DNA from: Podospora anserina
Taxonomy: Eukaryota
Assembly: GCA_017654855.1 (NCBI GenBank)
Contig: CM030333.1
Coordinates: forward strand, 4,464,001-4,528,000
Reading direction: 5' to 3'
Length of the DNA: 64,000 nt
The first letter of the stretch is position 1, and each line of letters opens with the position of its first letter. Below the pieces are notes generated by a model, which ran no database searches, had not been told where the DNA came from, and saw only the letters and a list, made by a program, of their open reading frames with translations. Both the position numbers and the translations under genes were made by a program. Positions 61,583 through 64,000 of the stretch are shown here, in pieces.

Positions 61583-63177
61583 ATGATAAGACGGCAAACA
61601 AACCCTCTGCTTGCCAACCTTCTCGACCGAGCATCTCAACCACAGCAACTCTTTTTGCCAATCCGAGTTTTTGATAACAGTAACAGACTGCTATCATTGC
61701 ATTCTTCTCAAGAACTCCGACTTAACTCAAAGCCATATTTCATTGGCAATATCCATCAGAGTCGAGGTTTGAGCAAATCGGCTCGAGAAAGGCCCGATCG
61801 CAAATCGACTTCTCAGAAAGGTTCACTATCTGGCAAAGGGGAATCGCTGTTGTCTTCATCACCCACATCACAACTATCAACAAGACCACTGTCTTTGTTG
61901 TCATCACAGAATTGTAAGTCACACCACGCCAGCACTCACTTCATTCATTGCTGACCGGATCAGGGTACACCGAACCACCAGCTCCGGCTACAGAGAGCAA
62001 TCACCCAACTGTTGACACCTCCAAATCTGGATCAGCTACTATGGATCAAAATCCAGGCTATCAAGGGTTCAGCCAAGGTTGGTCCAATGGCCTGAACCCA
62101 TCTGCACCTTCCTTCGACCTCAACTCTGCCGAAGGTCAGGCTTATCAACAGCCACCAGCCCAGTTTGATTCCGTTCCCAGATATCGCCACCCCAACGCTC
62201 AGCCCAGTCCTGATTCTAGCCCCATAAATAGCCAGCGCTCTCACAACAAAAAGAAGAACAAGCGTAACCGCAAAGGCCAAAGCGAAGGCGGCGGCACCGG
62301 AGGCGAGTACCTCACCCCCCGTCAAAGACGAAAAGCTGCCCGAGGAGCAGACCCAAACCAGCCCCCAGTCGGCGGTGGTGGTGGTCCCAACCAACTCCCA
62401 AACAGCAACCTTCCCCCCAAACCCCCTCCCGGCCTCTCCCGAGACATGGACAGAGCTCGCCTACCGGCGCAATCAACCCTTCCCGACCTCCTACCTTTTG
62501 CCCCATCCGCAGAGTCAGGCGGCGTTCCCGTTCCTACGGAAGCCTACCTCGCCCGCGCCAACATACCCCCTGCCCCTTCCCCCTCTCCGCACTCATTACT
62601 CCTCGTCATCGACCTCAACGGCACCCTCCTTCATCGACCCCACTCTAGGAGATCTGACCACTACATTCGCCGTCCTCATGCGGAGAAATTCGTGACGTAC
62701 TGTATCGACACATTTTCCGTCGTCATCTGGTCTTCTGCCCGACCAGAAAACGTGGAAAAGATGTGCAGGGATTTACTGACGGACGACCAAAAGCAGAGGG
62801 TTCTGGCCATGTGGGGAAGGGATAAATTCGGGTTGACGGCTAAGGACTACAACAGAAAGGTACAGGTGTATAAACGGCTGGAGACGGTGTGGGGGGATCA
62901 GCATATCAACCCCTCTGGAATGTGGCACCAGGGGAACACGGTGCTGATTGATGATTCGAAGGAAAAGGCGAGGAGCGAGCCGCACAATGCGGTGACGTTG
63001 CCGGAGTTCACGGGGAATAAGGAGGGGAGATGGGAGGGGCAGGTGTTGCCGGCTGTGCATAATTACTTGAACGAGCTGGCCAAGACGGAGGATGTGAGCA
63101 GGCTTATGAGGGTTCATCCGTTTAGAATGCCTATGAATAGGGAGGAGAAGCCTATGAATGGGGAGGACGAATTTTAG
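61583..63177 (+). CDS. NIF/FCP1-like HAD-superfamily phosphatase-domain protein; intron 61914-61963
   Basis: LLVIDLNGTLLHR, RPHAEKF, VVIWSSARPENV, WGRD, KRLETVW, NTVLIDDSKEKA. GTAAGT/CTGAC/CAG intron joins the upstream ATG 61583 exon in frame. Confidence 0.85.
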
Positions 63178-63546
63178 GAGATGGGGGCTTGGGTGGATGT
63201 GGGGGAAGGGGTTTGGAGGGGGGTGTATAGGTGGAACGGGAGACCTGGGAAGAGGACGACGGGGCAGAAAGAGCAGAGCTACATGAAGGTGGCGAAGTGG
63301 AGCAAGAGGCTGGACAAGGCCATGCCGTAGGGGAGGTACGTGACGGGCTGCATACCGGAGGTGAGGAACCATCATCAGCTGCCTTGCAAGGTCCTCAATG
63401 GGGATGGTACACCTCGGAAGGTTGAGGAGGGGGAAGTTGGCGAGTTGGATGAGCTTGTGCAGAGCCTGTACCTCATCTTGCCGCGGCGGAGAAGACAGAA
63501 GCCGTTTAATCACTGTATGAATAACAAGAACGTGACGGTGCTGTAG
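63178..63546 (+). other. Coding-like in-frame extension after the NIF gene stop (candidate edited/readthrough C-terminus, or pseudogene fragment)
   Basis: 123 codons in the same frame, mostly G/C-ending, with one internal TAG (63328-63330) and a closing TAG (63544-63546). Confidence 0.45.
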
Positions 63547-64000
63547 ACAGCGGGTAGGGGAAGAGAGGGCAATAGAGATAAAAATAGCGGTTGTAGTGTA
63601 AATCAACAAGCGTATATTCATACGGCATGCCCTGGAGAAAGATAACTGGTGCTGCGAGTCTGTAAAACTTGTAGTTGTGGTTAATTTGCAGAAGAACGTA
63701 GTCTCGAAAAATAGTTGATAGGCCTCAAAGATAGCTGGGATGCATGACTTGCTTTTGCAGTGCCAGTTATATTGTCTGCAGCGTGATATAGGTAGAGGAA
63801 TAGAGAAAGATCATGATAAAAGCGGTAGTGTGATAAGCAAGTGTTTAAAAGGAGAGGGGGAATGGTTGGAGGGAGTGTATTACCTAAATTGTACATTCAT
63901 TAGTCACATACCATACCAAGAATGCTTCCAACATCTCTATCAAATCCCTGTCATGCTAAAAAGCATCGCAGGCACTGCCGAGTCACCACGGTATCTCAAT

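What the first reader, a model, noticed from the sequence alone, without database searches (positions are those of the whole stretch)
63175..63546. Hidden coding-like C-terminal extension behind tandem TAG stops: candidate A-to-I stop-loss editing or readthrough
Seen: the NIF-domain ORF stops at TAG 63175-63177, but the same frame continues EMGAWVDVGEGVWRGVYRWNGRPGKRTTGQKEQSYMKVAKWSKRLDKAMP(TAG 63328)GRYVTGCIPEVRNHHQLPCKVLNGDGTPRKVEEGEVGELDELVQSLYLILPRRRRQKPFNHCMNNKNVTVL(TAG 63544). Codons are predominantly G/C-ending, like the gene body. The in-register antisense frame stays open (ORF 62773-63621), and the first non-TAG stop comes only at about 63643. The first two stops sit in T-A-G-G-A and T-A-G-G-G contexts. 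Known: Sordariomycetes (Fusarium, Neurospora, Sordaria) perform sexual-stage A-to-I mRNA editing that favours U at -1 and purines downstream and converts UAG to UGG. Inference: a stage-specific long isoform that needs two edited stops. Alternatives are an 84-nt in-frame intron 63094-63177 (GTGAGC...TTTAG, weak branch site) or a remnant of a neighbouring gene.
Basis: partly seen in the sequence, partly recalled or inferred. Interest (0 to 1): 0.7.

Follow-up and report, generated by a model that had tools for sequence, protein, structure and literature searches.

The report
Coding-like tail behind a TAG stop
Behind the TAG stop of a Podospora phosphatase-like gene, 122 more codons still look like protein-coding sequence and are broken only by TAG, which fits sexual-stage RNA editing of stop codons, but that editing has not been shown.

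Summary
The gene is a Podospora NIF/FCP1-like gene, inferred to be Pa_2_12190. Its stop, TAG 63175, is followed in frame by 50 codons, TAG 63328, 71 codons and TAG 63544. This stretch has the codon periodicity of the gene body: GC by codon position is 0.55/0.41/0.77 (chi2 33, p 7e-8). None of 324 non-coding-like windows here, and none of 70 evaluable relatives' post-stop regions, comes near that (maxima 13.8 and 9.4). Periodicity and G+C content drop at the third TAG. RNA contigs from four runs run unspliced through the extension and mostly end near 63610-63633.

The stop position is kept in five annotated sister species, and two more distant relatives also end in ...F.

A-to-I editing was not seen. 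The contigs read A at both TAGs, but the stage of the runs is unknown and contigs drop minor variants. The predicted folds do not put the first two TAGs in hairpin loops. The extension has no homologue outside the species complex.

Best reading (about 0.4): a UAG-gated C-terminal extension read after UAG-to-UGG editing. Main rival (about 0.33): a young dead coding relic inside the 3'UTR. If the best reading holds, this is a new member of a known kind.

The parts
61583..61913 (+). Exon 1 of the NIF-like gene (ATG 61583; MIRRQTNPLL...)
   Evidence: Matches the N-termini of the 514-aa models of five sister Podospora species. RNA contigs of 4 runs cover it and splice at 61913|61964.
61914..61963 (+). 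50-nt GT..AG intron
   Evidence: Joint 61913->61964 in one contig in each of 4 of 4 runs (table 5).
61964..63174 (+). Exon 2 coding part. The NIF/FCP1-like HAD domain lies at about 62599-63096, followed by a 26-aa tail
   Evidence: Pfam PF03031, E 1.2e-18, 67.8 bits against a cut-off of 21.8, residues 187-352 of the 378-aa reading. There are 940 homologues; the best is 98% identical, from P. pseudoanserina.
63124..63172 (+). 21-nt in-frame tandem duplication (PMNREEK / PMNGEDE) just before the stop
   Evidence: TRF period 21, 2.2 copies. Direct repeat D1.
63175..63177 (+). Canonical stop TAG (context UUU-A-GGAG); candidate edited site 1 is A 63176
   Evidence: Sequence. The stop position is kept in five annotated sister species, all 514 aa. 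T. setosa and T. verruculosa models end ...EEGF and ...RKEF. RNA contigs of 3 of 4 runs cover it and read A.
63178..63327 (+). Extension part 1, 50 codons (EMGAWVDV...DKAMP)
   Evidence: GC by codon position is 25/50, 25/50 and 42/50, p 3e-4; G3 is 0.72. A 49-aa ORF from a P. comata-like Logan contig is 96% identical and ends at the same place.
63328..63330 (+). Second in-frame TAG (context CGU-A-GGGG); candidate edited site 2 is A 63329
   Evidence: Sequence. Contigs of 4 of 4 runs read A.
63331..63543 (+). Extension part 2, 71 codons (GRYVTGC...NVTVL)
   Evidence: GC by codon position is 42/71, 25/71 and 51/71, p 5e-5, in the same phase as part 1 and the CDS.
63544..63546 (+). Third TAG; the coding-like signal ends here
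   Evidence: GC3 falls to about 0.27 and G+C falls from 0.59 to 0.43 downstream. The minimum-free-energy fold puts this TAG in a 4-nt hairpin loop, z-score not significant.
63547..63633 (+). A+T-richer 3' end of the transcript
   Evidence: Contig ends at 63610 (X2), 63620 (X6) and 63633 (X4); X1 reaches 63729. The published transcript model gives a 3'UTR of 398 nt, so an end near 63575.
62773..63810 (-). In-register antisense open frame of 345 codons, read as a by-product of A3-poor sense codons
   Evidence: No Pfam family above cut-off. No homologue among proteins of 189-604 aa. Its own codon-position GC would be 0.77/0.41/0.55 over the extension. Similar antisense ORFs accompany other GC3-rich ORFs in the window.

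Best explanation
The 3' region of the mRNA of this Podospora NIF/FCP1-like gene (inferred to be Pa_2_12190) carries a 122-codon in-frame continuation of the reading frame, gated by two UAG codons.

In vegetative cells translation stops at UAG 63175 and gives the 514-aa protein with a complete NIF domain. I infer that during sexual development the ADAT-type A-to-I mRNA editing known from Sordariomycetes converts UAG to UGG (Trp). One edit at 63176 would add 51 residues. A second edit at 63329 would add 72 more, giving a 637-aa isoform that ends at UAG 63544.

Shown: the coding-like signature, its frame and its end; the presence of the whole stretch in unspliced RNA; and the conservation of the stop position.

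Inferred: that the stretch is translated at all, and that editing is how.
For: (1) The codon periodicity is as strong as in real genes, in the gene's own phase, across both TAGs, and it ends at the third TAG (chi2 33.1, p 6.6e-8). Non-coding-like windows of the same DNA reach at most 13.8 (324 windows). Post-stop regions of relatives reach at most 9.4 (70 of 80 loci evaluable).
(2) The phase does not shift and there is no TAA or TGA in 122 codons.
(3) The extension shares the unusual G-ending codon style of the C-terminal half of the CDS: G3 is 0.52 in the CDS half and 0.72 and 0.51 in the two extension parts. The median G3 of 131 coding-like 122-codon windows here is 0.27.
(4) The G+C drop typical of a CDS end lies at 63547, not at 63178.
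(5) RNA contigs pass unspliced through the stretch. X2 has one contig from 61408 to 63610. The ends lie 64-87 nt after the third TAG in 3 of 4 runs.
(6) The stop position is old. It is the same in five sister species, and two Triangularia models also end in ...F. A tail that died that long ago should have lost its periodicity.
(7) Both TAGs have U at -1 and purines at +1 to +4. These are the flanks enriched at Fusarium editing sites (PMC4817773, passages).
Against: - No A-to-G difference was seen in contigs of 4 RNA runs from 4 studies. Site 1 is covered in 3 of 4 and site 2 in 4 of 4. Stage is unknown and contigs drop minor variants, so this is weak.
- No longer ORF, as an edited or hard-wired TGG form would give, appears among homologues of 207-662 aa or among hits to the extension.
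- The 61-nt folds do not put sites 1 and 2 in hairpin loops, and their energies are ordinary (z 0.16 and 0.51).
- The extension has no homologue beyond one P. comata-like ORF in 1.84 billion representatives.
- That ORF differs at 2 of 49 residues while the NIF domain is identical. This fits weak or no constraint.
- AlphaFold2 gives the extension mostly pLDDT under 50; only a hairpin at 379-398 reaches about 67.
- In 37 homologues the tails after the conserved PF motif are 3-104 aa, in most of them 3 aa, and none resembles the extension.
- 'TAG only' follows from G3-rich, A3-poor composition, so it is not independent evidence.
- The full isoform needs two edits on one mRNA.
Confidence: 0.4

Rival explanations
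1. A young coding relic. The stretch is the dead remainder of a formerly longer C-terminus, or of a small orphan gene captured into the 3'UTR. It is no longer translated and has not yet lost its codon periodicity. The TAGs are ordinary nonsense mutations, which in G-ending codons (TGG, CAG, GAG, AAG) mostly give TAG.
For: - No editing was seen.
- There is no homologue outside the complex.
- The P. comata-like ORF has 2 of 49 residues changed against 0 in the NIF domain.
- The fold confidence is low.
- Relatives have short, variable tails.
- The composition makes TAG the expected first stop.
- A 3'UTR of about 400-450 nt is within the range for P. anserina, where the mean is about 300 (PMC9801653, passages).
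Against: - The canonical stop position is shared with sister species and apparently with Triangularia. A tail dead since then should be randomised.
- There is only one internal stop and no frameshift in 122 codons.
- The periodic signal starts at the first codon after the stop and keeps the gene's phase and unusual G3 style. An unrelated relic would be in phase only 1 time in 3 and would rarely share that style.
- No parent gene was found.
Confidence: 0.33
2. Translation of the extension without editing, either by programmed ribosomal readthrough of UAG or by termination-reinitiation at ATG 63181, which gives a 49-aa downstream ORF.
For: ATG 63181 lies 4 nt after the stop and opens a 49-codon ORF. 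A gene caller also called that ORF in a relative's contig. The coding-like signal needs some form of translation.
Against: The contexts UAG-GAG and UAG-GGG are not the readthrough contexts I recall for fungi; this is recall and was not tested. Two successive readthroughs would be very inefficient. Reinitiation at 63181 does not explain the 71 periodic codons behind TAG 63328, which contain no early ATG.
Confidence: 0.08
3. Alternative splicing removes the TAGs. This would need the in-frame 84-nt intron 63094-63177, and a second in-frame intron such as 63289-63378 around the second TAG.
For: GT..AG boundaries with lengths that are multiples of three can be drawn.
Against: - The only joint in 4 of 4 RNA runs is 61913|61964; X2 is collinear from 61964 to 63610.
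- No alternative-splicing entry for the gene was found in the supplementary file of PMC9801653 that lists such events by gene. One of that paper's three datasets is labelled sexual development.
- The putative first intron encodes the conserved ...DVSRLMRVHPF end of the domain.
- The putative introns have coding-like third positions (read directly from the sequence; 90-nt bins).
- No CTRAY-like branch site was seen near 63177 (read by eye).
Confidence: 0.03
4. Chance. A G-rich, T-poor 3'UTR in which stops are rare.
For: T is only 0.18 of the stretch. Stop depletion alone is marginal (P 0.057). The positive GC skew continues past 63547.
Against: Base composition cannot create a three-base periodicity with p 6.6e-8 in the gene's own phase. 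Frames 1 and 2 carry the expected 5 stops each. No control region comes close. No tandem repeat is present.
Confidence: 0.04

Closest known systems
Stop-loss A-to-I mRNA editing in Sordariomycetes (323 genes in Fusarium graminearum; FgDBF2 as the studied case)
   Same: A canonical UAG with U at -1 and purine-rich 3' flanks, and an in-frame extension behind it. In the published cases the extended form is restricted to the sexual stage (PMC4817773, PMC11156358, PMC13123824; passages read).
   Different: Editing is not shown here. The FgDBF2 extension is 24 aa, and stop-loss extensions are described as biased toward disorder. This one is 51 to 123 aa, carries a strong codon signature and contains a second UAG. 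No hairpin-loop placement is predicted for the first two TAGs.
Premature-stop-correction (PSC) editing, e.g. PUK1 with two tandem UAGs and about 70 further F. graminearum genes
   Same: More than one in-frame UAG inside sequence that otherwise reads as coding. The full-length product would need every UAG edited (PMC4817773 abstract and passages; PMC11156358 passages).
   Different: Here the conserved domain is complete before the first UAG, and that UAG is the stop in all annotated relatives. The unedited product should therefore be functional. The RNA is present in four runs from four studies, not visibly stage-restricted.
Neurospora rfk-1 (Spore killer-2): an early UAG and a late UAA stop
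   Same: One transcript with two possible ends separated by a UAG (bioRxiv 10.1101/2020.12.30.424869; I saw only the search listing and the start of the abstract).
   Different: rfk-1 is a meiotic-drive killer gene. This gene is a conserved NIF/FCP1-like housekeeping-type gene. There is no functional evidence here.
Gene relics in Podospora
   Same: Coding-like sequence with in-frame stops and no annotated product.
   Different: That such relics are common in Podospora is my recollection of Silar et al. 2019, a paper I did not read here. This stretch is in phase with a live gene and directly abuts it, and no parent gene was found.

Membership tests
Fungal sexual-stage A-to-I stop-loss / PSC editing site | A-to-G mismatch between RNA and DNA at the UAG, in sexual tissue only | tested here: inconclusive
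   Contigs of 4 RNA runs read A at 63176 (covered in 3 of 4) and at 63329 (4 of 4). Stage is unknown, contigs drop minor variants, and no raw reads were available.
Fungal sexual-stage A-to-I stop-loss / PSC editing site | U at -1 and A or G at +1, with G at +2 and purines at +3 and +4 enriched | tested here: met
   Site 1 is UUU-A-GGAG and site 2 is CGU-A-GGGG, compared with the preferences in PMC4817773. The third TAG (UGU-A-GACA) fits less well. In a G-rich stretch this match is cheap.
Fungal sexual-stage A-to-I stop-loss / PSC editing site | Edited A lies in a hairpin loop of the fold of the 61-nt window (30 nt each side) | tested here: not met
   In the minimum-free-energy folds, site 1 is unpaired beside a weak hairpin and site 2 is in a bulge; z-scores are 0.16 and 0.51. 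Only the third TAG sits in a hairpin loop. This is a statistical preference, not a requirement.
Fungal sexual-stage A-to-I stop-loss / PSC editing site | An in-frame open extension behind the UAG | tested here: met
   50 codons, then 71 codons, both with a coding-like signature.
Fungal sexual-stage A-to-I stop-loss / PSC editing site | The organism edits mRNA in its sexual stage | not tested
   No editing catalogue for P. anserina was found in the held library. A preprint notes ADAT genes differentially expressed during P. anserina sexual development (10.1101/2024.12.09.627484, passage). Editing is reported for other Sordariales (listing for PMC5381528).
NIF / FCP1-like HAD phosphatase family (PF03031) | Profile match above the curated cut-off | tested here: met
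   E 1.2e-18, 67.8 bits against a cut-off of 21.8, covering profile positions 2-159 of 160.
NIF / FCP1-like HAD phosphatase family (PF03031) | Catalytic DxDx(T/V) motif (recalled, from no call) | tested here: not met
   The motif position reads D191-L192-N193-G194-T195, invariant in 38 aligned homologues. The second acidic residue is Asn in the whole orthogroup. The fold family is met, but catalytic competence is open.

The most novel reading that the evidence does not exclude
A two-gate recoded gene in Podospora anserina. A conserved NIF-type protein, possibly catalytically altered, gains a lineage-specific 123-residue C-terminal module only in sexual cells, through two successive UAG-to-UGG edits. 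That module is kept coding-like by selection that acts solely through edited transcripts. This would show that editing-dependent sequence can evolve and be maintained as real coding sequence behind a conserved stop codon.
Probability: 0.25. Interest if true: 0.6.

Novelty: new member of a known kind. Interest (0 to 1): 0.45.

Why it matters
Stop-loss editing is common in Sordariomycetes, but whether the extensions matter is debated. PMC13123824 argues for adaptive degron-like tails (passages). PMC13684035 argues against general adaptiveness (listing and start of the abstract). An extension that carries a codon signature of its own would be a rare case where selection on the extended product is visible in the DNA alone. 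Public sexual-stage RNA-seq of a model fungus could test it directly. My searches of the held library found no editing catalogue for that fungus. If the stretch is instead a dead relic, it shows how a recent coding past can mimic recoding, which matters for scans that look for such signals.

Tried and rejected
- RNA runs. The look-up of sequencing runs listed no holder on record as RNA. The four runs I laid are RNA by their spliced contigs, but they gave only contigs. That means no read-level variant frequencies, no strand, no poly(A) sites and no stage. Contigs break at G-runs around 63160-63215 in 3 of 4 runs, with different depth on either side (X6: 13 against 37). The break points (63162/63204, 63200/63215, 63163/63160) do not fit a single variant at 63176, so I read them as coverage loss in G-runs, not as editing bubbles. 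This is an inference.
- Own genome: not held.
- Earlier findings: not open.
- phmmer with the extension found only a 49-aa P. comata-like ORF and a spurious bacterial repeat protein. The 'shorter' word search found the same ORF.
- Antisense ORF: no homologue.
- Pfam on both extension parts: nothing.
- AlphaFold2 of the read-through protein with 37 homologues: the extension is mostly unconfident, so no fold search was made.
- Folds around the TAGs were not distinctive.
- Cross-species DNA of Cercophora, Triangularia and the sister Podospora species could not be fetched with these tools, so no dN/dS and no check of TAG conservation at the DNA level was possible.
- bioRxiv supplements, which hold the expression profiles for the sexual time course, are closed. 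They may show whether the gene is induced in perithecia.
Full report
WHAT IS THERE. The finding lies at the 3' end of a gene for a NIF/FCP1-like HAD-fold protein (Pfam PF03031, E 1.2e-18, 67.8 bits against a cut-off of 21.8). The best homologue is a 514-aa protein of Podospora pseudoanserina, locus tag QC764_212190, 98% identical. Its 90% cluster holds 514-aa models from five Podospora species and a 378-aa form that is the window's own.

RNA contigs from four runs of four studies all skip a 50-nt GT..AG intron, 61914-61963. The gene therefore reads: exon 1 at 61583-61913, exon 2 at 61964-63177, 514 codons plus TAG. A published transcript table for P. anserina lists Pa_2_12190 with a 5'UTR of 204 nt and a 3'UTR of 398 nt. 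The CDS span it implies (1593 nt) matches this gene (1595 nt) to within 2 nt. On that basis I take the gene to be Pa_2_12190 and place its transcript end near window position 63575. The next gene, Pa_2_12200, is convergent and ends near 63983 (PMC9801653, supplementary file 1).

TAG 63175, TAG 63328 and TAG 63544 are in one frame.

The important point is the codon periodicity. Over 63178-63543, G+C by codon position is 0.545/0.407/0.772 in the gene's own phase, with chi2 33.1 and p 6.6e-8. Each part is significant alone (p 3e-4 and 5e-5). The C-terminal half of the CDS reads 0.51/0.37/0.70. After 63547, GC3 falls to about 0.27 and in-frame stops of all kinds appear.

CONTROLS.
- Among 2122 windows of 369 nt across this 64-kb window, the 324 with no open frame of 100 codons reach a chi2 of at most 13.8. 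Long-ORF windows have a median of 14 and a 90th percentile of 32.
- Of 80 metagenomic loci that encode relatives of the protein, 70 had at least 300 nt behind their stop (56 distinct). Their in-frame post-stop chi2 has a median of 2.0 and a maximum of 9.4, and they carry a median of 5 in-frame stops in 122 codons. Their stops are TGA 26, TAA 16 and TAG 14 among the distinct ones. Some of those stops may be misplaced if an intron lies near the C-terminus.
- No tandem repeat of period 3 is present.
- No second copy of the stretch lies in the window.

The extension therefore is, or recently was, coding sequence in the gene's frame. This is not a family trait.

WHAT IS WEAKER THAN IT LOOKS. Stop depletion alone is marginal (P 0.057; P 0.027 for no TAA or TGA; 5000 shuffles). 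Third positions are 51-72% G and 6-7% A. Chance stops and first nonsense mutations are therefore expected to be TAG, so 'TAG only' adds little. The open antisense frame is likewise a by-product of A-poor third positions. It has no Pfam match above cut-off and no homologue among proteins of 189-604 aa. Similar antisense frames accompany other GC3-rich ORFs of the window.

RNA. X2 gives one contig from 61408 to 63610 that is collinear with the genome from 61964 on. X1, X4 and X6 cover the extension in separate contigs. No contig differs from the genome by a single letter, and the only joint is the known intron.
- The whole extension is in mature RNA.
- The 84-nt intron proposed as an alternative is not used in these runs. 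No alternative-splicing entry for the gene was found in the supplementary file of PMC9801653 that lists such events by gene. One of that paper's three datasets is labelled sexual development.
- Transcripts are not polyadenylated before 63300. The ends cluster at 63610-63633 in three runs, 64-87 nt behind the third TAG.
- No A-to-G change is seen at 63176 (covered in 3 of 4 runs) or 63329 (4 of 4). This last point is weak, because contigs keep the major variant only and the stage of the runs is unknown.
- Contigs break at G-runs between 63160 and 63215 in three runs. The break points do not fit a variant at 63176, so I take them as coverage loss.

RELATIVES. The five annotated sister species all stop at the same codon. 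Triangularia setosa and T. verruculosa models end ...NEEGF and ...RKEF, against ...GEDEF here. Cercophora samala and Apiosordaria backusii models end a few residues earlier. In 37 homologues the tails behind the conserved PF motif are 3 to 104 residues, in most of them 3, and none resembles the extension.

The extension peptide, with TAG read as W, finds only two proteins in 1.84 billion representatives. One is a 49-aa ORF from a Logan contig whose neighbouring NIF fragment has the P. comata tail. The other is a spurious bacterial repeat protein. A word search for shorter proteins finds the same ORF. That ORF keeps the start, the length and the stop of extension part 1 and differs at 2 of 49 residues. 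In P. comata the NIF domain is identical to the window's and the 14-residue end of the tail differs at 3 positions. This shows the second stop predates the P. anserina / P. comata split. It has no power to separate constraint from neutrality. No longer form, as a TGG allele or an assembled edited transcript would give, exists among homologues of 207-662 aa.

AlphaFold2 of the read-through protein with 37 homologues models the NIF domain well (pLDDT 85-97). The extension is mostly below 50, except for a Trp-rich hairpin at 379-398 at about 67.

MECHANISM. Something must explain 122 codons of in-phase coding signature behind a stop whose position is shared with distant relatives. I rank the explanations as follows.

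(a) A UAG-gated extension read after A-to-I editing, confidence 0.40. UAG-to-UGG editing in sexual structures is frequent in Sordariomycetes: 323 stop-loss genes and about 70 genes needing premature-stop correction in F. graminearum, and hundreds of stop-loss genes in N. crassa (PMC4817773 and PMC11156358, passages). Both TAGs carry the preferred U at -1 and purines at +1 to +4. A functional stop-loss extension acting as a degron is documented for FgDBF2 (PMC13123824, passages). Against this: no editing was seen, no hairpin-loop placement is predicted, there is no conservation beyond the complex, and two edits are needed.

(b) A young coding relic inside the 3'UTR, confidence 0.33. It fits all the negative results. 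It has to explain the old stop position, the exact phase and immediate start of the signal, the shared unusual G-ending codon style, and the absence of frameshifts and of any parent gene.

(c) Readthrough or reinitiation at ATG 63181, confidence 0.08.

(d) Alternative in-frame splicing, confidence 0.03.

(e) Chance composition, confidence 0.04.

The remainder is unassigned.

COMPARISON AND NOVELTY. If (a) is right, this is a new member of a known kind, intermediate between stop-loss and premature-stop-correction editing. The conserved domain is complete before the first UAG, as in stop-loss cases. The sequence behind it is long, coding-like and interrupted by a further UAG, as in PSC genes such as PUK1.

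I found no paper in the held library that names Pa_2_12190 in its main text. Among the 13 and 34 papers returned, judged by titles and abstract starts, none reports a catalogue of editing sites for P. anserina. One preprint only notes ADAT genes differentially expressed during its sexual development (passage).

VERDICT. Interest 0.45.

Noticed in passing
window 61583-62040: The window's own protein in the collection is a 378-aa model starting at ATG 62041 (P0124). RNA contigs of 4 runs splice 61913|61964, and five sister species carry 514-aa models starting MIRRQTNPLL. The longer reading, with ATG 61583, fits this genome too.
   Followed up: partly
window 62599-62613 (residues 191-195 of the 378-aa reading): The position of the DxDx(T/V) catalytic motif of FCP/SCP phosphatases (recalled, from no call) reads D-L-N-G-T, invariant in all 38 aligned homologues. 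The second acidic residue is Asn across the orthogroup, so the protein may not be a conventional phosphatase.
   Followed up: no
window about 62700: There is an abrupt switch of third-position usage inside one exon. Upstream C3 is 0.46 and G3 0.11; downstream G3 is 0.52 and C3 0.18. GC skew goes from about -0.5 to +0.6, and the positive skew persists to about 63900. This is unexplained.
   Followed up: partly
window 63124-63172: A 21-nt in-frame tandem duplication (PMNREEK / PMNGEDE) lies directly before the stop codon. The tail after the conserved PF motif varies from 3 to 104 residues among homologues, so this C-terminus is evolutionarily labile.
   Followed up: partly
window 63160-63215: RNA contigs of 3 of 4 runs from different studies break in this run of G-tracts. 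Depth differs on either side (X6: 13 against 37; X1: 15.5 against 7). This may be technical coverage loss at G-runs, or alternative 3' ends or a separate 3' transcript. Contigs cannot tell which.
   Followed up: no
window 63612-63815: Low-depth RNA contigs (X4 at 63612-63815; X1 to 63729) lie beyond the main transcript end. They may be readthrough from the convergent neighbour, inferred to be Pa_2_12200, whose listed transcript end maps near 63983. The strand is unknown.
   Followed up: no
window 63540-63551: The third TAG sits in the 4-nt loop of a small GCUG/CAGC hairpin in the minimum-free-energy fold (z-score not significant). Of the three TAGs it is the only one with the loop placement that fungal editing prefers. 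Behind it the frame runs 32 more codons, without coding signal, to TAA 63643.
   Followed up: no
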